Positions 5,694 through 21,891 of a stretch of DNA of 64,000 nt are shown piece after piece. Numbering within the stretch: position 1 is the stretch's first letter; each line of letters begins with the position of its first letter. The stretch is from Escherichia phage vB_EcoP_PE007. The notes under the pieces were generated by a model. The model saw only the letters and a list, made by a program, of their open reading frames with translations. It was not told where the DNA came from and made no database searches. A program made the position numbers and the translations under genes. The DNA lies in the sequence record OQ938542.1, one strand, 5' to 3'.

Positions 5694-5927
5694 ATGTCAG
5701 TATCAATTCAGCAGATCATAGCTAAGAAACATAAACATAAATGGGGTAATTATCCAAAGATTAAAGAAGCAGTTAAAGGGGCATATGAAAGCCCTAATAA
5801 TTGGTGTGAAGTAGAATTATCCTTCCCGTGGGCATGGAGACATAACTTCCATGGAAACTACATAAGAATGTATTACCGATGTGCTAGTGAGCATAAAACC
5901 AGGTCTCTAATAGCAAGTATTGTTTAA
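5694..5927 (+). CDS. hypothetical protein
   Basis: 77-aa ORF. Confidence 0.45.
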   Translation: MSVSIQQIIAKKHKHKWGNYPKIKEAVKGAYESPNNWCEVELSFPWAWRHNFHGNYIRMYYRCASEHKTRSLIASIV

Positions 5928-5947
5928 ATTAATTAGGAGAATAAGCG

Positions 5948-6766
5948 ATGTACTCATCAATTGAACATCAGAAGCAACTCGAAAAACTATTCAATAAAAA
6001 TCAGCTCTTGCCTCGCATGAGGAAGGAATTCGAGGACTCCGAAGAAATTGACTTTAAGGCATTCGCTGCCTATTTAGAAATTGATTATAAGCTGCTCATT
6101 GATGCAATGGTGCAGATTGCCTTACATAAACGTGCTGACATCCAGACTATGATTGGCTCTCTCATGAGTCACTCAGATGACGCTCAGTACATCGCTGACT
6201 GTCTGTATAAGATGGCAGAGAATGACTGCTTCAACTATGACCCTACCATCGACAAGTTCGGTGTTATTTATGAGATTAGTGAAGATGTACAGATGGAACT
6301 GGAGGCATTCCAGTATCCTTTGCCTATCGTAAGTGCTCCTAAGCCTGTTAAGTGTAATCGTGATACTGGTTACTACGAAAGCAGGGGTAGCATCATTCTC
6401 AAGAAGAACCATCATGAAATGGATGTCTGTCTTGACCACATCAACCGTATGAATAACCAACGTCTCTGTATTAACTGGGACGTTGCTAACTATGTAAAAG
6501 ACTCTCGTCCTAACATGGATAAACCCAAAGAAGGTGAAACCCGTCAGGACTATGAGAAACGTGTTAAAGCCTTTGAGAAGTACAGCCGTACAGCTAAGGA
6601 AGTAATGGAGTTAGTGACCAAAGAAGGTAATAACTTCTCCTTGGCTCACAAATATGACAAACGTGGGCGTACATATGCCTGTGGCTACCACATCAATTTT
6701 CAGGGAACCAGCTACAACAAAGCTGTACTTGAGTTCGCTGATAAGGAGTTAGTAAATGAAGACTAA
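5948..6766 (+). CDS. RNA polymerase II small subunit-like (N4 gp15-like)
   Basis: 272 aa immediately upstream of a T7-like RNAP catalytic fragment; size and position as in N4. Confidence 0.5.
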   Translation: MYSSIEHQKQLEKLFNKNQLLPRMRKEFEDSEEIDFKAFAAYLEIDYKLLIDAMVQIALHKRADIQTMIGSLMSHSDDAQYIADCLYKMAENDCFNYDPTIDKFGVIYEISEDVQMELEAFQYPLPIVSAPKPVKCNRDTGYYESRGSIILKKNHHEMDVCLDHINRMNNQRLCINWDVANYVKDSRPNMDKPKEGETRQDYEKRVKAFEKYSRTAKEVMELVTKEGNNFSLAHKYDKRGRTYACGYHINFQGTSYNKAVLEFADKELVNED

Positions 6767-6917
6767 CATTGGATCCTATGAGCTATGGGTTAATGAAGAG
6801 TGTATCTACTCAGGTACATATGTGAAGTGCTTATACTTTGAGAAGCTTTACAAGCTTCAAAACCCTGAGAGTAAAACCATTATTTATAAACTATCTGCCG
6901 ACGTAGTAACTGGCTAA
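6756..6917 (+). CDS. small hypothetical protein
   Basis: 54-aa ORF not in track, between the two RNAPII genes. Confidence 0.3.
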   Translation: MKTNIGSYELWVNEECIYSGTYVKCLYFEKLYKLQNPESKTIIYKLSADVVTG

Positions 6918-6974
6918 TCCATCCAATAAGCAGGCTCTCCATAGTGGGGAGCCAAGAAGCAAAAGGAACATAAA

Positions 6975-8192
6975 ATGCAACTGTTAACCGCTCGTGAATA
7001 CCTGAAAGTAGATATTGCTAATAACTATGGCTTAGATAAGAAGACATGGGATGAGCGTATTGCCTGGTTCGATGAGAACGAAGCTAACCTGCTTAATCTG
7101 GTAGATGAGGCAGAGGATTCCGCTCTGTTCTTTGCAGGTATAAACGCATGGAAAGACATGAAAGCAGGTAAGCCTATCGGTTATGCCGTAGCTCTGGATG
7201 CTACATCATCTGGCTTGCAGTTACTGGCCTGCCTGACTGGTGACCGTTCTGCTGCTGAACTGTGTAATGTAGTTAACTACATGGGAGAGAATGGTAAGCC
7301 ATTACGTCGTGATGCTTATACAGTTATCTATCACAAGATGCTGGACATCCTTGGTGAAGCATCACGTATTAAACGTAGTGACACTAAGCAGGCAGTTATG
7401 ACTGCATTCTACGGCTCAGAAGCCAAGCCTAAAGAAGTATTCGGTGAAGGTATTCGTCTCAAGACTTTTGAGAATGTAATGGAAACTGTTGCTAGTGGTC
7501 CTTGGGCATTGAACAAGTTCTTACTGCAATGTGGTAATCCAGATGCCAACCGTTACATATGGATACTTCCTGACAACTTCCATGCTGTCATTAAGGTCAT
7601 GGTTCCAGAAGTACAGACTGTTAACTTCTTAGGCAAACCGTTCGACATTACTCGTATGGTTCAGGGTACTGAAGAGAAGACTCGTATGCTCTCTGCTAAC
7701 ATCACCCACTCTATTGATGGAATGGTGGTACGTGAGATGCTACGTCGTTGTAACTTCGACATGAACCAGGTGGGCTATATTAAGTCCCTTTGCGAGGGAA
7801 CAGGTGATTACATGGTTGGATCTGATGATAACTATGAAATGGTTAATACACTGTGGACTAGTTATGAGAAATCAGGCTTCCTGTCTACTCGTATCTTTGA
7901 CTATCTGGATTCAGAAACCATTGCATTGGTTGATACAGATGTAATCCTGGCTATGCTCAACACTATGCCTAAGAAACCATTCCCTGTAATGACTGTACAT
8001 GACTGCTTCCGTTGCCATCCTAACTACGGTAATGACCTGCGTCGTCAATACAATCAGATCTTGTCTGACATTGCTAAGAGTGACTTACTGGGCTTCATTC
8101 TGTCTCAGGTACTGGGACAAGAGTTCTCTGCTGGTAAGCTGGATGACAGCCTCTGGCAGGACATCCTTGAAACAGACTATGCGTTGAGTTAA
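6975..8192 (+). CDS. RNA polymerase II large subunit-like, T7-like single-subunit RNAP catalytic fragment (N4 gp16-like)
   Basis: 405 aa; DATSSGLQLLA resembles T7 RNAP motif A (DGSCSGIQH) and MTVHDCF resembles motif C (HDSFG). Confidence 0.65.
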   Translation: MQLLTAREYLKVDIANNYGLDKKTWDERIAWFDENEANLLNLVDEAEDSALFFAGINAWKDMKAGKPIGYAVALDATSSGLQLLACLTGDRSAAELCNVVNYMGENGKPLRRDAYTVIYHKMLDILGEASRIKRSDTKQAVMTAFYGSEAKPKEVFGEGIRLKTFENVMETVASGPWALNKFLLQCGNPDANRYIWILPDNFHAVIKVMVPEVQTVNFLGKPFDITRMVQGTEEKTRMLSANITHSIDGMVVREMLRRCNFDMNQVGYIKSLCEGTGDYMVGSDDNYEMVNTLWTSYEKSGFLSTRIFDYLDSETIALVDTDVILAMLNTMPKKPFPVMTVHDCFRCHPNYGNDLRRQYNQILSDIAKSDLLGFILSQVLGQEFSAGKLDDSLWQDILETDYALS

Positions 8193-9823: not shown

Positions 9824-10012
9824 ATGTACAAAGAGATTGCGTTTTTCTCATTCTTACTAGGTGGTTTGATAGGTGCAGGATTTGTAGCTATTTCTAATAC
9901 CTACTTTGGTTCTACTCCAAACTCTGTAACACAAACCCTCAAGCATGAATGTGAATTGAATATCCCTCGTAATCAAAACTGTGTAATGCAGTTCGTACCG
10001 GAGAAGAAATGA
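9824..10012 (+). CDS. small membrane protein
   Basis: 62 aa with hydrophobic N-terminal segment. Confidence 0.45.
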   Translation: MYKEIAFFSFLLGGLIGAGFVAISNTYFGSTPNSVTQTLKHECELNIPRNQNCVMQFVPEKK

Positions 10013-10269
10013 ATATTCATAATCTACATTTGGTTGAAAAACTGTATGAAGAATACAACGACAACCGACAGCAATTAGCTAGTTTGAAGAAAGCTCCACA
10101 TATGGTGAAAGTATCCTTTTACGATAAGGATTTAGGACCGCAAGCTCGTACAAGAATACTACCTGAGCTACTGTCATTTTATCAAAATAAGGTAGATGAC
10201 TTAGAGAAACGCCTGAAGCATTTAGGTGTAGATTTATCAACGCTACCGGATGAAGGAGAAGATGAGTGA
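10009..10269 (+). CDS. hypothetical protein
   Basis: 86-aa ORF, overlapping start/stop. Confidence 0.5.
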   Translation: MNIHNLHLVEKLYEEYNDNRQQLASLKKAPHMVKVSFYDKDLGPQARTRILPELLSFYQNKVDDLEKRLKHLGVDLSTLPDEGEDE

Positions 10270-10475
10270 AAGTAACAAATCGTTCTGAGAACAATGAGGT
10301 AACTTTCGGTGATGTGGAGCCTGCTAATGGTTTTATTTATAACCAGACAGTGTGTTTAAAGATTCACTTACCTGATGGTAAACCTGCTGCTGTTGCTGTA
10401 GAAACTGGTAAATCATTCTGTCTATCTGCAAGTACATTCGTAACACCAATAAACCTGGAAGGATATTACCTTTGA
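10266..10475 (+). CDS. hypothetical protein
   Basis: 69-aa ORF. Confidence 0.45.
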   Translation: MKVTNRSENNEVTFGDVEPANGFIYNQTVCLKIHLPDGKPAAVAVETGKSFCLSASTFVTPINLEGYYL

Positions 10476-10657
10476 AATTAACACAGTCCCAAGCAATCTT
10501 CCTTCGTATGGTTCAAGGTGGCTCTGCCACCAGCAACCGTAATAACAAAACCGCACAGTCTCTTAAAAAGCTGGGCTTAGTTCAGTTCAATACTGGTCTT
10601 GGGTGGTCATTAACCCCTATCGGTGTACTTCAACTCAACGAAATGAAAGGTAACTAA
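10472..10657 (+). CDS. hypothetical protein
   Basis: 61-aa ORF. Confidence 0.45.
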   Translation: MKLTQSQAIFLRMVQGGSATSNRNNKTAQSLKKLGLVQFNTGLGWSLTPIGVLQLNEMKGN

Positions 10658-10987
10658 ATGAAAACTTTACTTAAAGGTATTGCAGTAGCTGCACTGATAG
10701 CTTTGGCCCCAAGTGCACAGGCAATTGAACCAGAACCAATTCTGGAAGGTGCTCAGGCTTACCTGGATGACACCCGTGATGTGTTCGGGCAAGGGTTCTT
10801 CATGGGCAGCATGGTTGCTTACATTGAGAACACAAATAACTGTGTTCCTGATGGTATTAAGTATTCAAGCATTCTGCCTAAGATTGCCAAAGTAGTTATT
10901 TATGACTCTGCGATCCTTAAGATGAAGAATACATCTCAAATTATTGCGTACTCAGTGCACAAGGCATATCCCTGCACCAAATCTTAA
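10658..10987 (+). CDS. secreted/periplasmic protein with signal peptide
   Basis: 109 aa; N-terminus MKTLLKGIAVAALIALAPSAQA is a classic Sec signal with AxA cleavage site. Confidence 0.5.
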   Translation: MKTLLKGIAVAALIALAPSAQAIEPEPILEGAQAYLDDTRDVFGQGFFMGSMVAYIENTNNCVPDGIKYSSILPKIAKVVIYDSAILKMKNTSQIIAYSVHKAYPCTKS

Positions 10988-11021
10988 TTAGTAATTCCAT
11001 TAGCTTTAGGAGAGTAAGTAA

Positions 11022-12074
11022 ATGGCAAGCATTGACTCCTTGACCGTATGTAATTCACGTCAAGCCCGTAACTTTATTATCCGTGCCTTGAAAGCAGGTA
11101 ACGTACCGTTCCTGACTTCATCCCCGGGTATGGGTAAATCTGCAATCATTCGTTCTATTGCAGAAGAATTTGGTATGAAGCTGATAGATCATCGTCTGTC
11201 TACTTCTGCCCCAGAAGACCTGTCTGGCTTACCATTCCGTAATGGTGACCGTGCAGAGTTTATTCCATTCGCTGACTTATTCCCCATTGAAGGGGATGAA
11301 GTACCAGAAGGGTATAATGGCTGGCTCCTGTTCCTTGATGAGTTCAACTCAGCTAAGAAAGAGGTAGTGGCTGCTGCATACAAACTAATTCTCGACCGTA
11401 TGACTGGTCAGAAAAAACTTCATCCTAATGTGATGATTGTATGCGCTGGTAACAAAGCTACTGACCGTGCCATTGTTAACCCATTAGGTACTGCAATGCA
11501 GTCCCGTGTGGTTCACTTTGAAATGGAACTTAACTTCGACATCTTTGTTGAAGACGTAATGATTCCTCAGCAATGGGATGAACGTCTGGTTGCATTCTTA
11601 CATGCTAATCCAGGCTATCTGCATGACTTCGACCCAGCTCATAAGAACAAAACGTTCTGTTGTCCTCGTACTTGGGACTTTGTTAATAAAGACCTCAAGA
11701 ACCTGCCAGAAGGTGCTCTTCCTGATGAAGATTCTATCTACTATGCAGGTCACGTTACTGCTGGTAAGGCTACAGAGTTTGTTCAGTTTACTCAGGTATA
11801 TAATCGTATCATTACGATTGAGAAGGTAGTCAAAGACCCACTGGGCTGTGCACTACCGGAAGATAACAACCTGTGTTGGGCTACCGTTAACCATCTGGCT
11901 AACAAGACTACTGAAGAGAACTTTGTTGATGTTCTTCAGTACATTGAACGCTTTAAAACGTTCACCCATAAGATTCTGTACTTCCGCACAGTAGGCAAGG
12001 CTTTACCAGAAATTCAGGCTACACCTGAATGGCGTAAGGCTGCTGCTAACGTCTCTCGTTACATTCACGGATAA
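11022..12074 (+). CDS. MoxR-like AAA+ ATPase
   Basis: 350 aa; Walker A SSPGMGKSA, Walker B LLFLDEFNSA. Confidence 0.6.
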   Translation: MASIDSLTVCNSRQARNFIIRALKAGNVPFLTSSPGMGKSAIIRSIAEEFGMKLIDHRLSTSAPEDLSGLPFRNGDRAEFIPFADLFPIEGDEVPEGYNGWLLFLDEFNSAKKEVVAAAYKLILDRMTGQKKLHPNVMIVCAGNKATDRAIVNPLGTAMQSRVVHFEMELNFDIFVEDVMIPQQWDERLVAFLHANPGYLHDFDPAHKNKTFCCPRTWDFVNKDLKNLPEGALPDEDSIYYAGHVTAGKATEFVQFTQVYNRIITIEKVVKDPLGCALPEDNNLCWATVNHLANKTTEENFVDVLQYIERFKTFTHKILYFRTVGKALPEIQATPEWRKAAANVSRYIHG

Positions 12075-12081
12075 TCACAAC

Positions 12082-13257
12082 ATGAACCAATTTCCTCAGC
12101 ACACACTTAGTGATGAACAACTCATGCGTGAGTATGACCGTATTCAGGCTCAAGCCTTCCTGGGTAAGTCTGCTGCGTTCTTTGGTTCATTGCTGTGTAG
12201 TCTTAAATTCTCATGGAAACGCGAGGATTGCCCCACTGCATGTACTGATGGGATAGAACTCCATTTCAACCCAGACTTCTTTATCTGGATGTGTCCAGAT
12301 GCAAGAGAAACAGTATTAATGCACGAGTTATGGCATGTGGCATATCTACATGACATTCGTCGTGGAAGCCGTGACCCGGAAGTCTGGAACCAGGCTTGTG
12401 ACCACTTCATTAACCTTCAGTTAGAAGAGGATGGTTACAAGTTCACTGGTATTGACAAAGGCATTTGCAAAGACCCTCAATATAAGGATTGGGTCGAAGA
12501 AGACATCTACGATGACCTGATGAAGAACCCTCAGAAAAGGCAGAAGCCGTCAGGGGGTGCTGGAGCAGGTCTTGCTGGCGACATAAAATCCCCCACTTCG
12601 GGGCAGTCCCAGGGTGCTGTTGTCAACAACGTAGTTCGTGCAATGCAGAGCCAGAAAATGGCTGGTGGACAGATGCCTGGTAAGGGTGCTGGACGTATGG
12701 AAGAGGTTATTACCCAATTCCTTAAACCAGTGGTTCCTTGGCAGGAAGTTCTGATGAACTTCTTTACCGACATTGATGACACTCACTATACGTGGGCCAG
12801 ACCAAACCGTCGTTATACTGACACCTATCTACCTTCACTGGAAGATGATGAAGGACGCCTACGACACTTAGCTTATTTTGAGGATGTATCCGGTTCTATT
12901 AGTAGTGCTGACTCTCTGCGTTTTAACTCAGAGGTTGCCTACGTTAAGAGCCAGTTCAATCCTAAGAAGATGTCCCTAATTACCTTCGACGATATTATCC
13001 AGGAAGAAATAGACATCACTGAAGAAGATACTTTCGAAGAAATTAAAATTACTGGTCGTGGTGGTACAAGCCTCGTGCCTGTACGAGATTGGATTATTAA
13101 GAATAAGCCAACCGCTGCAATCATATTCTCCGATATGTATGTTCGTCCAATGGAAGAATTGCCATTTGATATCCCTATCATCTGGTGTGTTCTGAATAAT
13201 CCCAATGCTACCGTACCTTTTGGGGAGGTAGTTCATATCCCTAAAGGAATGAAATAA
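12082..13257 (+). CDS. vWA-domain protein with N-terminal HExxH motif (DUF2201-like)
   Basis: 391 aa; MHELWH motif; MIDAS-like DVSGS; directly follows AAA+ ATPase. Confidence 0.55.
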   Translation: MNQFPQHTLSDEQLMREYDRIQAQAFLGKSAAFFGSLLCSLKFSWKREDCPTACTDGIELHFNPDFFIWMCPDARETVLMHELWHVAYLHDIRRGSRDPEVWNQACDHFINLQLEEDGYKFTGIDKGICKDPQYKDWVEEDIYDDLMKNPQKRQKPSGGAGAGLAGDIKSPTSGQSQGAVVNNVVRAMQSQKMAGGQMPGKGAGRMEEVITQFLKPVVPWQEVLMNFFTDIDDTHYTWARPNRRYTDTYLPSLEDDEGRLRHLAYFEDVSGSISSADSLRFNSEVAYVKSQFNPKKMSLITFDDIIQEEIDITEEDTFEEIKITGRGGTSLVPVRDWIIKNKPTAAIIFSDMYVRPMEELPFDIPIIWCVLNNPNATVPFGEVVHIPKGMK

Positions 13258-13763
13258 TGGTTGTTAATGGTAATTCTCTATATCGTTCATCTCAGTTGCT
13301 GGATGTCCCAGACCGTAAGATATCCGAACATGGTGTAAGCTATGGATTGGGTGAAGCTGGTTACGATATTCGTATCAAACAAGATATTACCTTCTATCGC
13401 TTATTTGGGTTGATTCCAATGGTGAAAGTCGTTGATGGAAACAAAGTATCACGCCATCTCGGTAAATTCACATTGGCTTCAGCAATTGAGAAGTTCAACA
13501 TGTCCCCATCCTGTGTAGCTATCGTTCACGATAAGTCTACGTGGGCAAGACGTGCATTATCAGTGTTCAATACCGTAATAGAACCAGGATGGAAAGGGTA
13601 TCTCACCCTTGAACTGGTCTATCATGGTCGTAAGAAATTGCATATCCCAGCTGGTGCTGGGATAGCTCAAGTATTATTTCATCTGGTTCAAGAACCTGCT
13701 AATTACAATGGCAAGTATATGAACCAGGAAAACAAACCAGTAGCTGCAAGAAGCAGTAAATAA
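13257..13763 (+). CDS. dcd: dCTP deaminase / dUTPase-superfamily protein
   Basis: 168 aa; EPGWKGYLTLEL...AGAGIAQVLFH resembles dCTP deaminase core motifs. Confidence 0.6.
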   Translation: MVVNGNSLYRSSQLLDVPDRKISEHGVSYGLGEAGYDIRIKQDITFYRLFGLIPMVKVVDGNKVSRHLGKFTLASAIEKFNMSPSCVAIVHDKSTWARRALSVFNTVIEPGWKGYLTLELVYHGRKKLHIPAGAGIAQVLFHLVQEPANYNGKYMNQENKPVAARSSK

Positions 13764-13772
13764 GGAAACAAC

Positions 13773-13982
13773 ATGTCAATATTTCAAGTAACTCATGCAA
13801 CCTCAGATGTACGTGTAACCATTAATGCTGCAAATGTAGTAGGAGTGGAACAAATTCCACTGTCTGATTGTGCACGTATCACATTCGTAAATGATAGTAC
13901 TATGGACACCAAAGAAACCTATCGTTCGGTACGTAATTACCTGAAGAAAGCTCTTGCTCCTACAAGCAAAGACGCTGAGTAA
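13773..13982 (+). CDS. hypothetical protein
   Basis: 69-aa ORF. Confidence 0.45.
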   Translation: MSIFQVTHATSDVRVTINAANVVGVEQIPLSDCARITFVNDSTMDTKETYRSVRNYLKKALAPTSKDAE

Positions 13983-13995
13983 GTAACTGCCTAAA

Positions 13996-14019
13996 TAGCC
14001 CAGCATAGTTGGGCTATTT
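13996..14019 (+). terminator. stem-loop, possible terminator
   Basis: tagccca/tgggcta stem; short T tract. Confidence 0.4.
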
Positions 14020-14055
14020 GTGAAGAAACTAACTCAACCCCACATAGGAACCATC

Positions 14056-14298
14056 ATGGAATCTTTAGCAGCAATCCTTGTTATGTTGTTTGTATTAGCT
14101 GTATACCTTATCCCTACTATCATTGCTTTCTCACGAGGCCATGCCTCTAAGTGGGGTATTGGTGTGCTTAATATCGTATTAGGCTGGTCTTTAGTCTTCT
14201 GGGTAGTAGCACTGATTTGGTCGCTGTCCAACAAAGGACAGAACCAAGTTACAAATGTAACTGTTGTCCAAACCAATGGTGGCAGTAAAGCAGAGTAA
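14056..14298 (+). CDS. superinfection-immunity (Imm)-like small membrane protein
   Basis: ATG 14056 with AGGAA RBS; 80 aa, two hydrophobic helices; IPTIIAFSRGH...NIVLGWSLVFWVVALIWSL pattern recalled for Imm family. Confidence 0.5.
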   Translation: MESLAAILVMLFVLAVYLIPTIIAFSRGHASKWGIGVLNIVLGWSLVFWVVALIWSLSNKGQNQVTNVTVVQTNGGSKAE

Positions 14299-14370
14299 CT
14301 AATCGTAATAGTCTCATGAGGCTATTACTGGAAGTTACTTCCAGCTCATTGCTTATCCATCTCCTAATCC

Positions 14371-14397
14371 AAGCCCACCTAACCCGTGGGCTTTTTT
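14371..14397 (+). terminator. intrinsic terminator
   Basis: aagcccac/gtgggctt stem plus tttttt. Confidence 0.65.
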
Positions 14398-14413
14398 AAT
14401 TACAGGTACTCTT

Positions 14414-14794
14414 ATGTCAAACAGACGAAATGGTAAGTCTATCTTTCAAGGGATGGACTTCGGTAAGCTGGAACAAACTGCAATGCTTGCTTTGGGTAAA
14501 ACTGTCCATGACCAAGTGGAGAGTAAAATTGAATTAGATCTTTATGCAACAATGCAGACTCTTATTCAGAAAAAATGGATTACTAGCAGACCTTTTCCTT
14601 CATACATTCCCCCAGAACCACATCTGAAATCTAAGGTAGACCGTATCATAGATAAGTTCTGGCTTAGCCCGTGTTATGACGAAATGCATCTTTACTTGGC
14701 TCAAATACAAAAGAATCCTTATACCAAAGATGTATTTAAGGGCAAGAGCACTACCCATCACTACCCCTGGTATAGAAGAGGTAGTAAATACTAA
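14414..14794 (+). CDS. hypothetical protein
   Basis: 126-aa ORF. Confidence 0.5.
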   Translation: MSNRRNGKSIFQGMDFGKLEQTAMLALGKTVHDQVESKIELDLYATMQTLIQKKWITSRPFPSYIPPEPHLKSKVDRIIDKFWLSPCYDEMHLYLAQIQKNPYTKDVFKGKSTTHHYPWYRRGSKY

Positions 14795-15237
14795 TGCGTA
14801 TCCCATTCCTAAGAAAAAGAGAACGAAATCCTGTTCTTTATAATAAAGGCATAGAGGATGAGTATGAACTCAACCGTAAAGCCCGTTCCTACATAACAAA
14901 ATTATTCATGGGGACTAAAAACCCTGATAGATTATTAGACTTTGTTTTTGAACAAGTCTTTATCATATACAGCTTAGCTATGTCTGCTGGTTCACAAGAA
15001 GTAAGTGATAAGGCAAGAAATGCTCTCTGTATGCTCCGTAAAGAGTATGAAGCTCTCATGTATGGAGACTTGTACTCATTTAAGGAAGAAACCGCTGTAG
15101 CGTGTTCTGTGGCTCTTACTGAAGGTGTAGCAGTATTACAGGAACTACCTCGTAGTGAGTTTAAACTGGTATATGTTCAGGTTAAGAGAATCACAGAAAC
15201 GAGAAGTGGTATCACTAACTATCTAAGGTCATTCTAA
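14794..15237 (+). CDS. hypothetical protein
   Basis: 147-aa ORF. Confidence 0.5.
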   Translation: MRIPFLRKRERNPVLYNKGIEDEYELNRKARSYITKLFMGTKNPDRLLDFVFEQVFIIYSLAMSAGSQEVSDKARNALCMLRKEYEALMYGDLYSFKEETAVACSVALTEGVAVLQELPRSEFKLVYVQVKRITETRSGITNYLRSF

Positions 15238-16181
15238 TGATTAAGGCATCAGTAATTGCAGATTCCGTTCATCCAGAAACAGGAACCCGTATCACAACCT
15301 TTGAATTGGTTTATCCCCGATTCATTCACAGTGAGTTTATGACTCACCGTGTATTCAACCGCAATGCTTCAAGTAGCCGTGCTATTCCTACCTCTAAGTT
15401 AATCGAACAGGTTCGCAATGAACCAGTGATGCCAAGTCACTGGGGCAAGAACCAGAAAGGTATGCAAGCAGATGAAGAACTCACTCCTATGGAGATTGAG
15501 GATGCTAAGTTTATCTGGGATAACGCTGCATCTGCTGCTGCTGTGTATGCTGAACAGCTACGTCGTGGGCAAGTACATAAGCAGATTGTTAACCGCATTC
15601 TGGAACCATTCACTCATATCCGTGTAGTAGTAACTTCAACTAGCTGGGCTAATTTCTATGGACTGCGTGACCACAAAGATGCACAGCCAGAGATTCGTGA
15701 ACTGGCTCAAGCAATGCGTATGGCACATGAAGAAAGTACACCAAGGGCATTACCATATGGACAATGGCATCTGCCATATGTTGCTCATATTGATCGTGTT
15801 GGGGCTTACAATTTCTGCAAACGCAATCGAATTACACGCGATGAACCAAGTGATGCAGAAGTGCATGGACTACTCCTCAAAGTAAGTGCTGCACGCTGTG
15901 CCCGTGCCTCATATAACAACTTTGAGGGACGCCCTTCTACTATCGAAGAAGATCTTGGCTTATTCGCTAAGTTAGTAGAAAACCAACCTATTCATGCTTC
16001 TCCAACGGAACATCAGGCTACACCTATGAACCTTGGTGAGAAGTATGTGAATAACATGAACCCAGTTACCTGGGAACAAGGTGTTACATCCATGGATAAA
16101 GAAGGGAATCTGTACTCAGGTAACCTGCTCCACTTTATCCAATTCCGTAAATTAATTCCTGGTGAGACTATTACTGAATGA
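15237..16181 (+). CDS. thyX: thymidylate synthase, flavin-dependent (ThyX-like)
   Basis: 314 aa; THRVFNRNASSSRAIP resembles the ThyX RHRx7-8S signature. Confidence 0.5.
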   Translation: MIKASVIADSVHPETGTRITTFELVYPRFIHSEFMTHRVFNRNASSSRAIPTSKLIEQVRNEPVMPSHWGKNQKGMQADEELTPMEIEDAKFIWDNAASAAAVYAEQLRRGQVHKQIVNRILEPFTHIRVVVTSTSWANFYGLRDHKDAQPEIRELAQAMRMAHEESTPRALPYGQWHLPYVAHIDRVGAYNFCKRNRITRDEPSDAEVHGLLLKVSAARCARASYNNFEGRPSTIEEDLGLFAKLVENQPIHASPTEHQATPMNLGEKYVNNMNPVTWEQGVTSMDKEGNLYSGNLLHFIQFRKLIPGETITE

Positions 16182-16417
16182 AAAAACTAGCTCTATACGC
16201 AATGCTAATTAGTACCCTACTAACACTGACCTACGCATACAAAGTTGCCTTTGTCGTAGAAACAGATATGCAGTTCATTCGAGCTAGTATTCTGTTCTTT
16301 GTAAGCGAGATTGGTTTATGGTGTGTTTACTACTTTGCTCGTGACTACGAAGCAATTCGTGAGCAAGAAGAAGTGAAAAAACAAATGATACGATTTGTAG
16401 AACAAAATCGTAAGTAA
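16178..16417 (+). CDS. small membrane protein
   Basis: 79 aa with hydrophobic segments. Confidence 0.45.
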   Translation: MKKLALYAMLISTLLTLTYAYKVAFVVETDMQFIRASILFFVSEIGLWCVYYFARDYEAIREQEEVKKQMIRFVEQNRK

Positions 16418-16422
16418 ACCTA

Positions 16423-16448
16423 AGACCTCCTCCGGGAGGTCTTTTTTT
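16423..16448 (+). terminator. intrinsic terminator
   Basis: agacctcc-tccg-ggaggtct plus ttttttt. Confidence 0.7.
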
Positions 16449-16477
16449 GGTTTCAATTAACTCTTTTAGGAGGGCAT

Positions 16478-16690
16478 ATGCCTGCTAAATACCGTATCAA
16501 AGACACACCCGTAATGTGTGAGGGTGAGAAGGGCGACATTGTATATGCCTGTATCCAGGATGATTTCAATGCTGCTCAGATGCTAACCCAAATGACAAAT
16601 ACACTGCATGTGTCAGTAACACTGGACCCTACCGGTGACTATCCATGCTTCCCTATTCCTGCCCATAACCTGGAGCAAATTCATGATTAA
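16478..16690 (+). CDS. hypothetical protein
   Basis: 70-aa ORF with GGAGG RBS. Confidence 0.5.
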   Translation: MPAKYRIKDTPVMCEGEKGDIVYACIQDDFNAAQMLTQMTNTLHVSVTLDPTGDYPCFPIPAHNLEQIHD

Positions 16691-16997
16691 CCCTGAAGTA
16701 ATTCATAGTAAAACCGGTAAGGCTGTCCCACTCAGTGAGATTGCAGTAACTGGTGATATTGCTGCTTGTCCAGCAAACATTGCCTCTCTATGTATGTGCA
16801 TTGCTGCACTGGCAGAGGAACGTAAGTTATGGCTGGAGCCAAGCAAGGAAATGGTACTAGCTGGTATGGCTGAACTGAATGCACTTCTGAAAGAAATGTA
16901 TGACGAGAATGGTCAATTAGTTGAACCTACTGATGACCAAATTTCAGACGCTGTAGTATTTGTCCTTCAAGCAATGGCAGGTAAACGCAATGGTTAA
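16683..16997 (+). CDS. hypothetical protein
   Basis: ATG 16683 with GGAG RBS inside ORF 16635-16997; 104 aa. Confidence 0.45.
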   Translation: MINPEVIHSKTGKAVPLSEIAVTGDIAACPANIASLCMCIAALAEERKLWLEPSKEMVLAGMAELNALLKEMYDENGQLVEPTDDQISDAVVFVLQAMAGKRNG

Positions 16998-17181
16998 TGT
17001 AAATATCGCCTCAGAGAAAACGTATAGCATTCAGATTAATGGCTTAACTGAGTATCAAGTCTTATTCCTAATGAATGCTTTTCAAAATAGTCCAGTGGGT
17101 CACCATCCTAATGATGAACCACGAGAAGAAGCTGAACTTCGTAAAGCTATTTTTGATAAGTGTAAACAAGTTCTAATGTAA
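16990..17181 (+). CDS. hypothetical protein
   Basis: ATG 16990 overlapping previous stop; 63 aa. Confidence 0.4.
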   Translation: MVNVNIASEKTYSIQINGLTEYQVLFLMNAFQNSPVGHHPNDEPREEAELRKAIFDKCKQVLM

Positions 17182-17208
17182 GCAACATTTAATCTGGAGA
17201 GTAAATAA

Positions 17209-19776
17209 ATGTTAGTTGCAGATACCAACGAAATAGCTACCTCAGCGACACTGGGTAGCAAAGAAACAATTGCCTTTGGCATCTCTGATGACCCGGCATT
17301 CTTTCATGTATTAAGTACTTCCCTGTATAACAATCCTACTCTGGCAGTAGTCCGTGAGACTATCTGTAACAGTTGGGATGCTCATATTGAAGCAGGTAAG
17401 ACTGATACCCCTATTCGTATCACTATTGATACAGACAACTTTATTACCTTCCGAGACTACGGTAACGGCATTCCAGATGAACTCATTGGTTCCATTTATG
17501 GTGTCTATGGTGCATCTACTAAGAAGGCCAACAGTAGCGTTACTGGTGGCTTTGGCCTGGGATGTAAATCTCCATTCGCTTATACAGATAGCTTCCAGGT
17601 TACTTCATGGAACCAGGGAAAGATGTCGGTATATAACGTAGCTAAGGCTGCGATTGAGAATGATGGTAAGCCCGGTATTGTTCCTATTGTTACTGGTATT
17701 CCTACTGAGGAATCTGGCCTGGAAGTTAAATTCCAGTTAGGCAAACATGACGTAAATACCTTCGTGCATTACATCACATCAATCGTATTTAACGGTGAGA
17801 TTAAAGCTGAGCTTAGTATCCCTAAACTAGTTAAAACAGAAGCAGGCAATAGTATTCAACAGGGTGATTACACTTTATTGAATACGCTGGGTATGTCATT
17901 TGAACCTGGTTCATATGATATGTCTGATAGATGGTATCAAGGCTATATGGGTAGCAGTAACATATACGTTCGCTACGGTAATGTAATGTACCCAATTGTA
18001 TCCAGCCCAGCTAGTGAAGAAGCTGTAGACCTTATCCTCAACTTCATGAATATTATTGGTGCTTCTAATCTAGTAGTTCAGGCTGCACCAGACACTTTAG
18101 CTATTGCTCCTAGTCGTGAAACGCTGTCTAACCAGAAGTTAACCGACGATGGTATTACTACTCTATGTGTAGATTTAGTAGACCGTATGGAGAAAGAGAT
18201 TAAGGCTAAGATTCCTGAAGCTATTAAGCAAGTTGAAGAATATGCCTCTAAATCCTCTACTCGCTTTTGGGAATATCCATCTTTCCTACTTGCTGTTACA
18301 GACAGAACCGTCCAACGTTATATGTCCTCTAGCTTATGGGCTAAGCAACGTAAGCATCACATCAAACACTGGCGTAATCTATCCAATAAGGCTTTGTTAG
18401 CTCGCCCTGAGTATGCAGGTCTTAAGAAACTGTATGGCAAGGCTATGTGTGCTCTTAAGGATACTCGTGAAGAAAGTACATACTCTCCGTTCCAGGAATT
18501 AGTATATCGCCATCTACACTTACCACAGCTTGCTGCTTTGAAAACCTCTGGTATTAAGTGGTCTGGTTACATAATGAACCAAGGTAATCGTGTTGACCTG
18601 GTGAAGGGTAGACTTACTGACTACTTTAAGATGTATCATAACTCCCATCAGGGTATTGGCATATTTACTACCAAGAACGTTGTAGTTACTCGCCGTTTAT
18701 CTGATTGTGCAGACTCTTTTTCATACTTCCCTGAGTACAATCGAGGTGATCTGGAGCGTACAGCTTTTGTTCACGTCGTTGGTCCTAAGAAGGGTGCAGC
18801 AGAAGAAGCTGTAACTAAGTTCACTGCTATGGGTTATCGGGTAATTGACCTTACTCAATATAATGAGTGGGACAAACCAACTAACTTCCGCAGAGAACAA
18901 GCTAAGATAGCTGCCGAGAAACGGGCTAAGACAATAGCTGCCAATAAAACCAAAGCAACTAGTAAAACCAATGCTCTGATTTCATTGAATGCAGTTCTTG
19001 GTGCTACCCAGGTGCGGAATAAAAATGGAGATTGGGAACCCAAGCCGTATATTCAGAAAGAATTTGCTGACCCAAGTCGCCATGAAAAGTACGGTTTCGT
19101 TGAAGTAGAACAGCCTAAGTACTACGTACTAGCCAATCAGGTTGGTTCAGGTAACCCAGTAACTGCCAGTATTGGAACCATGTGGAAATGGTATGAGTTA
19201 TCCGATGAGATGAAAGCAGAGACTGTTGTCTGTCGTAATCAAATTGAAGCTAACAAGGCCAAACGACGTGGTGCTATCCACATTGATGATGTTCGCTTTA
19301 GTGAACTGATGTCTGTTATTACCAGTAAAGGATTCAAGAAATATGTTACTGAACATCGTATAGGTATTCTGGAATACGTAGGACTGGATGACAGAGAGTA
19401 TTGGGAAATCCTAGACATACTGGGTCTAACCTTCAAACCATTACAGAATCTGATTTTTAAACCAGAATATGAATGGGCATATGACTTTCTACGGAATCGA
19501 CCACACGACAACAAAGAAAAACTTGTTGAAATGGGTTGTATTAAGTCAGTGGATGACTTAGAGCCATATGCAATAATGACTAATCCGCGTAATCATAAGT
19601 ACTTTAAAATACTTAATGATTACAAAGAATTATTCAGTTATAGCTGGAATAAAAATGACATCCTACAGACGCTGGACTTAGGTAGTTTGGTCAAACACCT
19701 TAAGAAGAATCCAGAGGATATTCCTGGGTTTAAGTCCCTCTACCGTAATCGTCTAAATAAACTGAAAGGTAACTAA
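17209..19776 (+). CDS. rIIA: rIIA-like protein with N-terminal GHKL (HATPase_c-like) domain
   Basis: 855 aa; N-terminal ICNSWDAH...RDYGNGIP...GGFGLGCKS resembles GHKL ATPase motifs as in rIIA. Confidence 0.55.
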   Translation: MLVADTNEIATSATLGSKETIAFGISDDPAFFHVLSTSLYNNPTLAVVRETICNSWDAHIEAGKTDTPIRITIDTDNFITFRDYGNGIPDELIGSIYGVYGASTKKANSSVTGGFGLGCKSPFAYTDSFQVTSWNQGKMSVYNVAKAAIENDGKPGIVPIVTGIPTEESGLEVKFQLGKHDVNTFVHYITSIVFNGEIKAELSIPKLVKTEAGNSIQQGDYTLLNTLGMSFEPGSYDMSDRWYQGYMGSSNIYVRYGNVMYPIVSSPASEEAVDLILNFMNIIGASNLVVQAAPDTLAIAPSRETLSNQKLTDDGITTLCVDLVDRMEKEIKAKIPEAIKQVEEYASKSSTRFWEYPSFLLAVTDRTVQRYMSSSLWAKQRKHHIKHWRNLSNKALLARPEYAGLKKLYGKAMCALKDTREESTYSPFQELVYRHLHLPQLAALKTSGIKWSGYIMNQGNRVDLVKGRLTDYFKMYHNSHQGIGIFTTKNVVVTRRLSDCADSFSYFPEYNRGDLERTAFVHVVGPKKGAAEEAVTKFTAMGYRVIDLTQYNEWDKPTNFRREQAKIAAEKRAKTIAANKTKATSKTNALISLNAVLGATQVRNKNGDWEPKPYIQKEFADPSRHEKYGFVEVEQPKYYVLANQVGSGNPVTASIGTMWKWYELSDEMKAETVVCRNQIEANKAKRRGAIHIDDVRFSELMSVITSKGFKKYVTEHRIGILEYVGLDDREYWEILDILGLTFKPLQNLIFKPEYEWAYDFLRNRPHDNKEKLVEMGCIKSVDDLEPYAIMTNPRNHKYFKILNDYKELFSYSWNKNDILQTLDLGSLVKHLKKNPEDIPGFKSLYRNRLNKLKGN

Positions 19777-19780
19777 TCTG

Positions 19781-21829
19781 ATGAAAATCGAACTGATTTC
19801 TATCATCGCACTGGCAGTTGACAGTCGTAACCTTACATTGTGGAAGCCTGATGGCTCCACGATTGTATATCCTCAGAGCGACCCACGGGTTGCTCGTATT
19901 GTATCTGAAGCACAAACCAAGGGTCTGGGAACTACCAAAGACCAAATAGAAGTAAACATTGCACCGGAAGTAAACCTGCGTACTGAATATCTGGAAGCAG
20001 AGAAGAACACTAACGGATTCGTCCGTTTCTTCAAGGTAGCCAAAGCTAAGCTTAAAGATTTCTTCCAAGATGGTACGGGTACTCAACCTGACCGTATCAT
20101 TTCTGATATTAAGCTAGGCAATCCAACCAAAACATTAGTGTCTAAAGCTATGGATACATTCCTGGCTGTACAAGCTAATGAACCAGAAGTAACAGTATCT
20201 GACGGTTTCTACGACAGACGTGACAACCTAATGTGGGTTACTGGCTGGGATAAGGACCATAACCATCCTGCATTGGTTCGTTTTATTAACGATGTATTGT
20301 GTTGGGGCTATGCTCATACCGACCGTACTCTTGCACAGGAATGGCCTATTGCAATTCGTGCAGTATCCGATGATGAAATGTGTGAGTTTGCTAAACAAGC
20401 TAAACACATCAAAGGGGTACACATTGTATTCACCAGTCGTGATGTAACACCATTTCCTTACGTAGAAGTAGCTAAAACTACGAACCAGGACAAACTGGCT
20501 GCTGCTTCTGAAAAGTTAGCTGCATTGGGAGCTATCAGTACCGATGATGCTAACTTCCACACTGAAGTGAAGGAGGATGAAGTGGTTGTTGCTGTTACCA
20601 ACAATGGGGTTATCCCTGGAGTTGAGAACCTGCATCGTCACTTACGTCAGTCTGCCAAGCTGAAAGACTACAAGGGCTTTACTAAGTTCCTTGAACGCCT
20701 GGCTCCGGTTATTAAAGACCGTCTGCACTCAGTAGAAGACCTGATGAAGTTCATGGAAACTGCTGAATTACCTATTGCCGATGATGGTTCAATCCTGTTC
20801 CTTAAACGCCTTAAGTCTAGTGGTATAGAAAATGGTAAACGTGTATTCGTTGACTGTCACTCAGGTAACATTCGTCAATGGGTAGGCTGTAAAGTGCAGG
20901 TACGTGAAGACCTGGTAGACCCTGACCGTCGTCAGGATTGTTCTAACGGTCTGCACGTAGCATCCATGAGCTATCTACGTGGCTTCGGTGGTAACGTAAC
21001 TATCCTTGGTAAAGTAGCACCGGAAGATGTATTTGCTGTTCCTGAGTACAGCACTAATAAGATGCGTGTATCTGCGTATCACATTATTGCTGAACTACCG
21101 GAAGAGGAACGTAATAACGTTAACAATGGTATCTACCTGTCTAAGACAGAAGTAGGTAAGAAGTTGCTTAATGATGCCATCGTTGGGAACCATAGCTCAC
21201 CTACCACACTTATTATGGTTGGGGGTCATTATGGTACTAACCTCAAATACACTAATCTCACATCTGGTTCTGTAGAACAATTCCGTACAGTTGCTAGCAA
21301 AGAAGCACTGAACATGGAAGAGTCACTGAATGAAGCTGTAGCTGCTGAACCAGTGAAGGCTACTGACCTTAAACCTGTTATTAAGAAGGCTCCTACTGTG
21401 AAAGAACAAATCCAGGAACTGGTCAAAGAGTTCCTTACTGCAACAACCCCAGAAGATAAGTTAGCTGCTGCTGACCTTCTGGTAGAACTGCGTGGTAAAG
21501 CTCGTAAGCCTTGGGCTGCATTCGATGTGGGTAATGATGTAGTAGCTAAGATTGCTGATGTACGTGCTACCTATACAGCTAAGCCTATTGGTAAACCTAA
21601 AGCTGTTAAGCAGGATAAGACAGTTAAACCTACTAAATCTAAGCCTGCTATTAATAGTACTAATGCCAACATCATCAGAGGTTATCTAGCAGATAGTGGT
21701 ATGTCTGATTATCAGAAAGCCCACTCCATTCATGACCTGAAACGTGCAGCTAAGAAGTCTTATGCTGCTATGGGTCTTACTGAAGAAGAGTGCAAAGCCA
21801 TTGATAAGCTGAAGCACCACCTTAAGTAA
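19781..21829 (+). CDS. rIIB: rIIB-like protein
   Basis: 682 aa immediately downstream of rIIA-like gene; call by synteny. Confidence 0.4.
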   Translation: MKIELISIIALAVDSRNLTLWKPDGSTIVYPQSDPRVARIVSEAQTKGLGTTKDQIEVNIAPEVNLRTEYLEAEKNTNGFVRFFKVAKAKLKDFFQDGTGTQPDRIISDIKLGNPTKTLVSKAMDTFLAVQANEPEVTVSDGFYDRRDNLMWVTGWDKDHNHPALVRFINDVLCWGYAHTDRTLAQEWPIAIRAVSDDEMCEFAKQAKHIKGVHIVFTSRDVTPFPYVEVAKTTNQDKLAAASEKLAALGAISTDDANFHTEVKEDEVVVAVTNNGVIPGVENLHRHLRQSAKLKDYKGFTKFLERLAPVIKDRLHSVEDLMKFMETAELPIADDGSILFLKRLKSSGIENGKRVFVDCHSGNIRQWVGCKVQVREDLVDPDRRQDCSNGLHVASMSYLRGFGGNVTILGKVAPEDVFAVPEYSTNKMRVSAYHIIAELPEEERNNVNNGIYLSKTEVGKKLLNDAIVGNHSSPTTLIMVGGHYGTNLKYTNLTSGSVEQFRTVASKEALNMEESLNEAVAAEPVKATDLKPVIKKAPTVKEQIQELVKEFLTATTPEDKLAAADLLVELRGKARKPWAAFDVGNDVVAKIADVRATYTAKPIGKPKAVKQDKTVKPTKSKPAINSTNANIIRGYLADSGMSDYQKAHSIHDLKRAAKKSYAAMGLTEEECKAIDKLKHHLK

Positions 21830-21841
21830 TAGCCTGTTCAA

Positions 21842-21875
21842 ATAGCCTCACTTATAATAAAGTGAGGCTATCTTT
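21842..21875 (+). terminator. stem-loop terminator
   Basis: 12-bp stem atagcctcactt/aagtgaggctat with 6-nt loop. Confidence 0.55.
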
Positions 21876-21891
21876 GAAGAGGAAATAAGCT

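What the first reader, a model, noticed from the sequence alone, without database searches (positions are those of the whole stretch)
14056..14397. Imm-like membrane protein followed by three consecutive hairpins
A two-helix 80-aa protein resembling superinfection-immunity proteins is followed by a 10-bp stem (14305-14328), a 7-bp stem with a 3-nt tta loop (14328-14344, same geometry as the early-promoter hairpins) and a canonical terminator (14371-14397). The hairpin cluster may be a processing site, an additional vRNAP-type promoter or a strong insulator.
Basis: seen in the sequence. Interest (0 to 1): 0.45.

Follow-up and report, generated by a model that had tools for sequence, protein, structure and literature searches.

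The report
Imm gene plus conserved terminator region
An N4-like coliphage carries a T4-type superinfection-immunity gene inserted just upstream of an ancient, conserved transcript-end region (RNA hairpins plus an ordinary terminator); both are ordinary, and the middle hairpin is not an early-type promoter.

Summary
The window is a Gamaleyavirus (G7C/N4-like) genome. ORF 14056-14298 is an 80-aa, two-helix member of Pfam PF14373, the T4 Imm family, and relatives already annotate it as superinfection immunity. It is a cassette missing from N4, KP8, phi G17, Moonfish and Jgk1.

All three hairpins exist. H1 (14305-14328) is a real RNA structure on the + strand: six unrelated sequence versions all fold, and 5 of 8 pairs show compensatory changes. 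The third hairpin is a textbook intrinsic terminator, already annotated in two relatives.

H2, the G-poor spacer (with CATTGCTTA) and the terminator are conserved as sequence across five Enquatrovirinae genera, including N4. They persist where imm is absent, so this is the ancestral gp27-gp28 operon boundary. Other N4 intergenic terminators are conserved in the same way, so this one is not special.

H2 is not a vRNAP-type promoter. It lacks the GCTCCGC heptamer of the three real early promoters, and the homologous N4 sequence forms no hairpin.

One speculative lead: the spacer is complementary to the ribosome-binding site of the RNAPII small-subunit gene (-22.9 kcal/mol, p about 0.01-0.025). 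That complementarity is lost in N4, G7C and Moo19.

Overall this is ordinary, with one uncharacterised conserved motif.

The parts
13773..13982 (+). Homolog of N4 gp27 (69 aa, function unknown). It is the last gene before the conserved boundary region in phages that lack imm.
   Evidence: phrog_7594, E 2e-34. Aligns with N4 gp27 and with its KP8, Moo19 and phi G17 homologs.
13992..14020 (+). Upstream RNA hairpin 'A' (13 bp including G.U, loop AUA). It is the homolog of the hairpin that sits directly before H2 in imm-less phages.
   Evidence: -17.4 kcal/mol, z = -4.75. Aligns with the hairpin of phi G17, Moonfish and Jgk1. The G7C record annotates it as stem_loop.
14056..14298 (+). imm-like gene: an 80-aa, two-helix membrane protein of the T4 Imm / PF14373 family.
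   Evidence: PF14373, E 5e-17, 61.9 bits. phrog_1039 'immunity to superinfection', E 1.5e-29. BLASTP against T4 Imm gives E 4e-10, with R27 and W44 aligned to T4 R33 and W50. Hydropathy. Annotated the same way in relatives.
14305..14328 (+). H1: an RNA hairpin whose structure is kept while its sequence is replaced.
   Evidence: Six unrelated sequence versions all fold, at -11 to -16.6 kcal/mol. 5 of 8 pairs carry compensatory double changes and 97% of cells are paired; 0 of 500 shuffles reach the covariation score. The G.U pairs form only on the + strand.
14328..14344 (+). H2: a short hairpin (5-7 bp, 3-nt loop) built on the conserved TGGAAG...CTTCCA.
   Evidence: Paired in 98% of cells, but with no double compensatory change. 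KP8 keeps a 5-bp version after losing 1 nt from each arm; N4 forms no hairpin.
14345..14370 (+). G-poor C/U-rich single-stranded spacer. It contains the invariant CATTGCTTA (14347-14355) and an anti-Shine-Dalgarno-like UCUCC.
   Evidence: Unpaired in the MFE fold. CATTGCTTA is invariant in five genera. The H2-to-terminator block is 95.7-100% identical within Gamaleyavirus. It occurs once in the genome.
14371..14397 (+). Rho-independent terminator: AAGCCCAC / GTGGGCTT stem, 7-nt loop, T6.
   Evidence: Annotated as a terminator in SP5M and PhAPEC7. The stem is invariant in 28 distinct sequences.
14392..14402 (+). AT-only tract TTTTTTAATTA overlapping the terminator tail. It is a candidate site for a re-start (RNAPII middle) promoter for the gp28-gp29-thyX genes. 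This is inference only.
   Evidence: TTTTTTA.TT is invariant across five genera. N4 RNAPII promoters are described as a minimal, highly AT-rich -7 to +2 region (PMC4496689). No start-site data exist.
14414..14794 (+). Homolog of N4 gp28, the first gene after the boundary.
   Evidence: phrog_12812, E 5e-70. The PhAPEC7 annotation says 'similar to gp28 from N4'.
5927..5953 (+). Ribosome-binding site and start codon of the RNAPII small-subunit gene (N4 gp15 homolog). It is complementary to the spacer. This is a speculative trans target.
   Evidence: Duplex of -22.9 kcal/mol, 19 bp from the SD to the AUG. Gene identity.

Best explanation
There are two separate things here.

(1) The imm gene. It is a T4-Imm-family inner-membrane protein carried on a small accessory cassette. 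The cassette was inserted into the gp27-gp28 intergenic region of an N4-like phage, between hairpin A and H2.
- Shown: family membership, and the presence/absence pattern of the cassette.
- Inferred: it is made from the rightward middle-gene transcript. By analogy with T4 Imm, it sits in the inner membrane and blocks entry of DNA from a second infecting phage. Which phage it excludes, and what it binds, are unknown. T4 Imm binds a tape-measure protein, which podoviruses lack.

(2) The 115-nt region downstream. This is the ancestral end-of-operon module of Enquatrovirinae, and it works at the RNA level on the + strand.
- The last hairpin and its U-tract terminate (or partly terminate) the transcript that covers the ATPase, vWA, dCTP deaminase, gp27 and imm genes.
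- H1 is a structure-selected hairpin. With the weaker H2, it most likely protects the 3' end or marks a processing point (inferred).
- Transcription of gp28-gp29-thyX then depends on read-through, or on a re-start in the conserved AT-only tract that overlaps the terminator tail (inferred).
- The role of the sequence-invariant TGGAA...CATTGCTTA is not established.
For: Imm gene:
- Pfam, PHROG and T4 comparisons.
- T4 Imm blocks genome translocation, and R33 and W50 matter for that (bioRxiv 10.64898/2026.03.06.709160).
- imm is absent from N4, KP8, phi G17, Moonfish, Jgk1 and a Moo19-like contig, yet the downstream module is still there.
- In Moo19 the cassette is flanked by a 16-nt direct repeat, TTGTGGAAGTTCCTTC.

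RNA level and strand:
- H1 shows covariation, and its G.U pairs would be A.C mismatches on the other strand. As DNA the - strand folds less well.

Terminator:
- Consensus scan and relatives' annotations. It is one-directional, because the - strand has no T-run.

Ancestral module:
- The same order of hairpin, TGGAA, CATTGCTTA, GCCCAC/GTGGGC stem and T6-AATTA is found in N4 itself.

Ordinariness control:
- Other N4 intergenic terminators are also conserved at sequence level with this window.
Against: - No transcript data exist for any Gamaleyavirus or for N4 in the searchable literature.
- It is not known that the T7-like RNAPII stops at this terminator.
- A purely structural role does not explain why the H2/spacer sequence is invariant across genera while H1 turns over freely.
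- Superinfection immunity has not been tested for any N4-like Imm homolog.
Confidence: 0.6

Rival explanations
1. H2, the spacer and the terminator together form a small regulatory RNA of about 68 nt. It would be cut from the 3' UTR or start at GG 14330/14331. Its single-stranded C/U-rich spacer would pair with the ribosome-binding site of the RNAPII small-subunit mRNA (gp15 homolog, start 5948). Middle transcription would thereby shut off synthesis of the middle RNA polymerase.
For: - The architecture fits: a 5' stem-loop, an unpaired G-poor tract, and a terminator with six U.
- A 19-bp duplex of -22.9 kcal/mol covers the SD through the AUG of the gp15 homolog.
- It is the best of 74 start regions and the best site genome-wide.
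- Each phage's own spacer and own start region give -14.7 to -22.9 kcal/mol in 7 of 8 Gamaleyavirus pairs. KP8 gives -15.3 and Jgk1 gives -16.4.
Against: - Calibrated significance is only modest. 2.5% of random genomic 26-mers, and 0.75% of shuffled spacers, reach -22.9 against some start region.
- The runners-up are close, at -22.4 and -21.8.
- The complementarity is lost in G7C (-9.3), Moo19 (-11.2) and N4 (-13.2, not the top target).
- No compensatory change was found. In G7C both partners changed and pairing got worse.
- There is no Rfam match and no sigma-70-like promoter upstream.
Confidence: 0.08
2. The conserved sequence is a promoter for the phage-encoded middle RNA polymerase (RNAPII) that drives gp28-gp29-thyX. 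It could be a hairpin-type promoter like those of LUZ7, with H2 as the hairpin and the start at G14351. Or it could be the AT-only tract TTTTTTAATTA just after the terminator.
For: - LUZ7 middle promoters are hairpins with a stem of at least 6 bp and a 3-4-nt loop, about 15 bp upstream of a G start (PMC9163698).
- The only G in the spacer, 14351, lies exactly 15 nt from the centre of H2, inside the invariant CATTGCTTA.
- N4 RNAPII promoters are a minimal, highly AT-rich -7 to +2 region, and TTTTTTA.TT is invariant across genera.
- A new operon starts 16 nt after the T-run.
Against: - The H2/CATTGCTTA motif occurs once in the genome, whereas a promoter class should recur.
- H2 is not GC-rich and is not a hairpin in N4.
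- A promoter placed 20 nt upstream of a strong terminator would mostly produce a 47-nt RNA.
- N4-type middle promoters are reported to differ from LUZ7's.
- The tract reading rests only on AT-richness.
Confidence: 0.15
3. H2 is an extra promoter for the virion RNA polymerase.
For: The geometry is the same as the early promoters (7-bp stem, 3-nt loop), and the template-strand loop has a central purine.
Against: - It lacks the GCTCCGC heptamer present in all three early promoters of the window.
- It lacks -10G, -8G and the +1 rule.
- The loop varies among relatives.
- There is no hairpin in N4.
- It lies 14 kb into the genome, whereas vRNAP promoters are confined to the first-injected left end.
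Confidence: 0.02
4. The sequence conservation has no regulatory meaning of its own. The intergenic block would simply be a short homologous linker that is spread and homogenised by recombination between mosaic N4-like genomes.
For: The flanking genes are mosaic. gp27 is 66-99% identical and gp28 80-92% identical to the window, while both intergenic regions stay at 92-100%. Gene content on either side varies: imm and gp28 are each present or absent.
Against: - The block is kept even between genera whose gp27 proteins are only about 38% identical. At that distance recombination cannot explain identity.
- H1, inside the same region, diverges freely while keeping its pairing. That pattern indicates selection rather than homogenisation.
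Confidence: 0.1

Closest known systems
Bacteriophage T4 Imm (UniProt P08986; Pfam PF14373 Imm_superinfect)
   Same: Similar size (80 vs 83 aa) and two hydrophobic helices. Both match the same Pfam domain above threshold. They are 30% identical over 61 residues, and the functionally important R and W are conserved.
   Different: It is carried by a podovirus that has no tape-measure protein, which is the reported T4 Imm target. It is expressed from a middle operon transcribed by a phage RNA polymerase. Its exclusion activity and specificity are untested.
Rho-independent (intrinsic) terminators of N4-like phages, for example those predicted with ARNold in PhAPEC7 and SP5M
   Same: A GC-rich 8-bp stem, a short loop and a run of six T, at the end of an operon. 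The homologous site is already annotated as a terminator.
   Different: The stem sequence is invariant across five genera. The terminator is preceded by two further hairpins and a conserved unpaired tract whose role is unknown. It has a 7-nt loop instead of the UUCG-type tetraloops of most other terminators in this genome.
N4 virion-RNA-polymerase hairpin promoters (P1-P3)
   Same: A 5-7-bp stem, a 3-nt loop, and a purine at the loop centre on the template strand.
   Different: There is no GC-rich heptamer, no -10G or -8G, the wrong +1, a variable loop and the wrong genomic location. It is not a member.
LUZ7 middle (RNAPII) hairpin promoters and the leaky LUZ7 terminators (ONT-cappable-seq, PMC9163698)
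   Same: LUZ7 is an N4-like phage. Its middle promoters are hairpins with a stem of at least 6 bp and a 3-4-nt loop, about 15 bp before a G start. Many of its terminators allow stage-dependent read-through.
   Different: LUZ7 is a distant Pseudomonas phage that uses Drc rather than gp1/gp2. Its hairpins are GC-rich and recur, whereas this one is AT-rich and occurs once. No start sites have been mapped here.
Hfq-type 3'-UTR-derived small RNAs of enterobacteria
   Same: A 5' stem-loop, an unpaired seed, and a terminator with a U-tail. The seed is complementary to a ribosome-binding site.
   Different: No transcript evidence, no Rfam family, no host homolog, and the target complementarity is not conserved in N4, G7C or Moo19.

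Membership tests
T4 Imm / Pfam PF14373 superinfection immunity protein | Match to the family HMM above the curated threshold | tested here: met
   61.9 bits against a cutoff of 27.9, E 5e-17, covering the full 42-position profile. T4 Imm itself scores 58.2 bits.
T4 Imm / Pfam PF14373 superinfection immunity protein | Small protein (about 80 aa) with two hydrophobic membrane helices | tested here: met
   80 aa. The 19-residue Kyte-Doolittle average exceeds 1.6 over residues 1-28 and 33-59.
T4 Imm / Pfam PF14373 superinfection immunity protein | Conservation of the residues needed for T4 Imm activity (R33, W50) | tested here: met
   The BLASTP alignment places R27 opposite R33 and W44 opposite W50. 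The mutant data are in bioRxiv 10.64898/2026.03.06.709160.
T4 Imm / Pfam PF14373 superinfection immunity protein | Blocks genome entry of a superinfecting phage | not testable with these tools
   Needs plating-efficiency and DNA-entry assays. No published test on an N4-like homolog was found.
N4 vRNAP hairpin promoter | Hairpin with a 5-7-bp stem and a 3-nt loop | tested here: met
   CTGGAAG-TTA-CTTCCAG, 7 bp plus 3 nt.
N4 vRNAP hairpin promoter | GC-rich heptamer centred at -11, with -11 purine, -10G and -8G on the template strand, and +1C | tested here: not met
   The template strand reads AGTAACT: -11A is correct, but -10 is T and -8 is A. The + strand base 11 nt downstream of the loop centre is C14347, so the template base is G. 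All three true early promoters have GCTCCGC.
N4 vRNAP hairpin promoter | Located in the first-injected left end; element conserved as a hairpin in N4 | tested here: not met
   It lies at 14.3 kb inside the middle region. The N4 homolog TGGAAATTCC does not fold (-1.6 kcal/mol, z = +0.3).
Rho-independent terminator | GC-rich stem-loop immediately followed by a T-run, on the coding strand at the end of a gene | tested here: met
   8 bp with 5 G-C, a 7-nt loop and T6. Annotated as a terminator at the homologous site in SP5M and PhAPEC7.
Rho-independent terminator | Transcripts actually end there (for RNAPII or for host RNAP) | not testable with these tools
   No 3'-end data were found for this phage group.
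LUZ7-type RNAPII hairpin promoter | GC-rich hairpin (stem of at least 6 bp, loop of 3-4 nt) about 15 bp upstream of a G start, recurring through the middle region | tested here: inconclusive
   The geometry fits and G14351 is at +15. However, the stem is only 3/7 G-C, the motif occurs once, and N4 has no hairpin. No start sites are available.
Hfq-type trans-acting small RNA | 5' hairpin, unpaired seed, terminator with a U-tail | tested here: met
   MFE structure. The spacer has 1 G in 26 nt.
Hfq-type trans-acting small RNA | Seed-target complementarity conserved or co-varying among relatives | tested here: not met
   It holds in most Gamaleyavirus genomes, in KP8 and in Jgk1. It is lost in G7C, Moo19 and N4, with no compensatory change.
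Hfq-type trans-acting small RNA | A discrete stable transcript | not testable with these tools
   No RNA data. No Rfam family matches; the best hit is 19 bits, E 0.29.

The most novel reading that the evidence does not exclude
The invariant TGGAA...CATTGCTTA...terminator block would be a roughly 68-nt regulatory RNA shared by all Enquatrovirinae. In this phage lineage its unpaired tract would pair with the ribosome-binding site of the RNAPII small-subunit mRNA. That would give a negative feedback loop in which middle transcription shuts down synthesis of the middle RNA polymerase, an RNA-based early-to-middle switch in N4-like phages.
Probability: 0.07. Interest if true: 0.7.

Novelty: new member of a known kind. 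Interest (0 to 1): 0.27.

Why it matters
For annotation, the gene can be labelled a T4-Imm-family protein with more confidence, because the functional residues are conserved. The intergenic region can be labelled a conserved operon boundary with a terminator, not an early promoter.

For biology there are two modest points:
- An Imm homolog in a podovirus cannot act on a tape-measure protein, so testing what it excludes would show how general the Imm mechanism is.
- N4-like phages keep a short sequence (TGGAA...CATTGCTTA) unchanged across genera, right next to a hairpin that is free to change sequence. The middle-transcription signals of N4-like coliphages are still poorly defined, and this block is a concrete site to probe with 5'/3'-end mapping.

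Tried and rejected
- **Small ORF across the hairpins** (ATG 14318 to TAA 14399-14401, 27 aa). Rejected. The start codon is not conserved among H1 versions, and every polymorphism in the block is non-synonymous in that frame.
- **Known RNA family.** No Rfam hit came near threshold.
- **Host-derived element.** No match in 5,426 E. coli genomes.
- **Repeated promoter-like motif.** No second copy of H2 or CATTGCTTA-type words in intergenic positions of the window. Perfect hairpins with a 3-nt loop are not enriched.
- **Class of 'hairpin + TG(G)AAG' signals.** Five co-occurrences on the + strand against about 2.5 expected, which is not significant.
- **Small RNA targeting gp15.** Kept only as a low-probability lead, for the reasons given under the rival explanations.
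- **Uniqueness of the cross-genus conservation.** Rejected, because other N4 intergenic terminators are conserved with the window too.
- **Alternative (anti-terminator) pairing for the terminator's 5' arm.** I looked by eye and found no complementary segment.
- **N4 middle-promoter papers** (PMC135322, PMC196469). Not held in the library. My recollection of a 'tTTTAa/t' start-site consensus therefore could not be checked, and I use it only as a lead.
- **Metagenome scan.** It added 15 N4-like contigs and 3 unrelated chance hits, and no new kind of variant.

Full report
**What the window is.** The region is 93-94% identical to Escherichia phages PD205, PD38 and Bp4. It matches 63 records of the genus Gamaleyavirus and its neighbours, which are G7C/N4-like podoviruses of the Schitoviridae. 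Genes on the + strand around the finding follow the N4 order: ATPase (gp24), vWA protein (gp25), dCTP deaminase (gp26), a 69-aa gp27 homolog, the finding's ORF, gp28 and gp29 homologs, and ThyX.

**Checking the observation.** The ORF at 14056-14298 encodes 80 aa with two hydrophobic stretches, residues 1-28 and 33-59. Folding 14296-14412 as RNA gives exactly the three hairpins described: -29.3 kcal/mol, z = -4.14, and 0 of 200 shuffles fold as well. Each hairpin also stands out when folded alone.

Two qualifications apply. H1 and H2 share C14328, so both cannot be full length at once. And a perfect 7-bp hairpin with a 3-nt loop is expected about 4.5 times per 64 kb by chance, against 7 seen. 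H2 is therefore notable only because of where it sits and how well it is conserved.

**The protein.**
- It matches Pfam PF14373 (Imm_superinfect) at 61.9 bits against a cutoff of 27.9, and PHROG 1039 'immunity to superinfection'.
- T4 Imm itself matches the same model and aligns at 30% identity, E 4e-10.
- In that alignment R27 and W44 fall opposite T4 R33 and W50. Mutating those two T4 residues weakens exclusion in a recent preprint, which also shows that T4 Imm binds the tape-measure protein to block genome translocation.
- Homologs occur in about 970 phage records, and the gene is already annotated as superinfection immunity in G7C, Bp4, IME11 and others.

This part is known and ordinary. 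One point remains open: a podovirus has no tape-measure protein, so the target here is unknown.

**The gene is an inserted cassette.**
- N4, Klebsiella phage KP8, phi G17, Moonfish, Jgk1 and a Moo19-like metagenomic contig lack imm. All still have the downstream non-coding block, directly after gp27.
- In those phages the hairpin in front of H2 is the homolog of the window's upstream hairpin at 13992-14020.
- In Moo19 the cassette is bracketed by a 16-nt direct repeat, TTGTGGAAGTTCCTTC.
- The three hairpins therefore do not belong to imm. They are the old gp27-gp28 boundary into which imm was inserted.

**H1.**
- I aligned 29 relatives, 28 of them distinct, and counted pairs.
- 97% of H1 cells are paired. 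5 of 8 pairs carry compensatory double changes. 0 of 500 shuffles reach the observed covariation score, and slid controls collapse to 37-54% paired.
- Six sequence-unrelated versions (window, SP5M, IME11, phi G17, KP8, N4) all fold into 9-12-bp hairpins of -11 to -16.6 kcal/mol at the same position.
- Several positions switch between U.G and U-A or C-G, which pairs only on the + strand. As DNA the - strand folds less well.
- H1 is therefore a selected structure in the sense RNA. That fits a 3'-end protecting or processing hairpin. It argues against a template-strand promoter hairpin for rightward transcription.

**H2, the spacer and the terminator.** These are conserved as sequence.
- The block 14329-14397 is 95.7-100% identical across Gamaleyavirus, while gp27 ranges from 66 to 99% and gp28 from 80 to 92%.
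- Across five genera, N4 included, the invariant parts are TGGAA, CATTGCTTA, GCCCAC and GTGGGCTTTTTTA.TT.
- H2 has no double compensatory change. It keeps pairing in KP8 after losing 1 nt from each arm. It does not fold in N4 and is weak in E20.
- The terminator stem never varies, so covariation says nothing about it. It is still a textbook intrinsic terminator and is annotated as one in two relatives.
- As a control, other N4 intergenic regions also share terminator sequences with this window: gp1-gp2, gp17-gp18 and gp34-gp35. Cross-genus conservation of boundary elements is therefore a family habit and not a peculiarity of this site.

**Is H2 a vRNAP-type promoter? No.**
- The window's three early promoters, at 762, 1022 and 5671, all contain GCTCCGC inside a 5-7-bp hairpin with a 3-nt loop.
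- That matches the N4 rules: a GC-rich heptamer at -11, -11 purine, -10G, -8G and +1C.
- H2 has only the central purine. Its loop varies among relatives, N4 has no hairpin there, and the site lies outside the early region.

**Is it an RNAPII (middle) promoter? Open.**
- LUZ7 middle promoters are hairpins about 15 bp upstream of a G start. The spacer's only G, 14351, is 15 nt from the centre of H2.
- Against this, the motif occurs once, H2 is not GC-rich, and it sits just ahead of a terminator.
- The AT-only tract that overlaps the terminator tail fits the description of N4 promoters as an AT-rich -7 to +2 region. No more than that can be said.

**A small-RNA lead.**
- The unpaired spacer is complementary to the ribosome-binding site and start codon of the gene at 5948. 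That gene is the N4 gp15 homolog, the small subunit of RNAPII.
- The duplex has 19 bp and -22.9 kcal/mol. It is the best of 74 start regions and the best site genome-wide.
- Calibrated, 0.75% of shuffled spacers and 2.5% of random genomic 26-mers do as well.
- The complementarity persists in most Gamaleyavirus genomes, in KP8 and in Jgk1. It is lost in G7C, Moo19 and N4, with no compensating change.
- I keep it as a low-probability idea.

**Verdict.** The finding is real and now largely explained. It consists of a known-family immunity gene inserted at a conserved operon boundary, a covarying RNA hairpin, a marginal second hairpin and an ordinary terminator. The promoter reading is rejected. 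What remains unexplained is why TGGAA...CATTGCTTA is invariant.

Noticed in passing
window 757-773, 1017-1033, 5667-5681 (+): Three vRNAP-type early promoters. Each is a hairpin with the invariant heptamer GCTCCGC (loop TCC; GGA on the template strand). The third lies upstream of the genes for the two RNAPII subunits (5948-6766 and 6975-8192).
   Followed up: partly
window 5927-5953 (+) versus 14345-14370 (+): There is a 19-bp complementarity (-22.9 kcal/mol) between the conserved spacer and the SD/AUG of the RNAPII small-subunit gene. It is the top site genome-wide, but it is lost in N4, G7C and Moo19.
   Followed up: yes
window 21842-21883 (+); N4 NC_008720 20093-20137: An intergenic hairpin with an ATAGC...GCTAT base, followed by CTTTGAAGAGGA. 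Between N4 and this phage the stem interior is replaced by compensating changes, while the flank GCTATCTTTGAAGAGGA is 17/17 identical. Hairpins at 13992-14020 and 14305-14328 share the base and a following TG(G)AAG. This may be a recurring signal.
   Followed up: partly
window 35561-35635 (+): ARAGORN calls a single tRNA-Ile with anticodon AAT, in a long, highly structured non-coding stretch (roughly 34.1-36.2 kb). This anticodon is unusual for bacteria.
   Followed up: no
window 6767-6974 (+): There is a 208-nt gap between the two RNAPII subunit genes, against 47 nt in N4. It holds a 7-bp hairpin with a 3-nt loop (6842-6858, GAAGCTT-TAC-AAGCTTC) and a 9-bp hairpin (6933-6953). KP8 annotates two small ORFs there.
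   Followed up: no
L035 (G7C), L011 (phi G17), L012 (Moonfish), L028 (U1G), L029 (St11Ph5): Gene content just after the terminator is variable. G7C, phi G17 and Moonfish lack the gp28 homolog altogether. U1G and St11Ph5 have different or shortened ORFs there. The conserved intergenic block is therefore a mosaic junction.
   Followed up: partly
L027 (PGN829.1), L024 (Bp4), L026 (K57alpha1.2): There appear to be annotation problems in public records. In PGN829.1 imm is split into two short CDS on opposite strands, although tblastn reads all 80 aa at 95% identity. Bp4 annotates a shortened 67-aa imm. K57alpha1.2 carries a 10-kb 'virion RNA polymerase' pseudogene feature on the opposite strand across this region.
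   Followed up: no
window 10000-20000: Sigma-70-like promoter matches are depleted in this middle region: 9 found against 24 +/- 4 in shuffles. This is consistent with transcription by a phage RNA polymerase rather than by the host enzyme.
   Followed up: no
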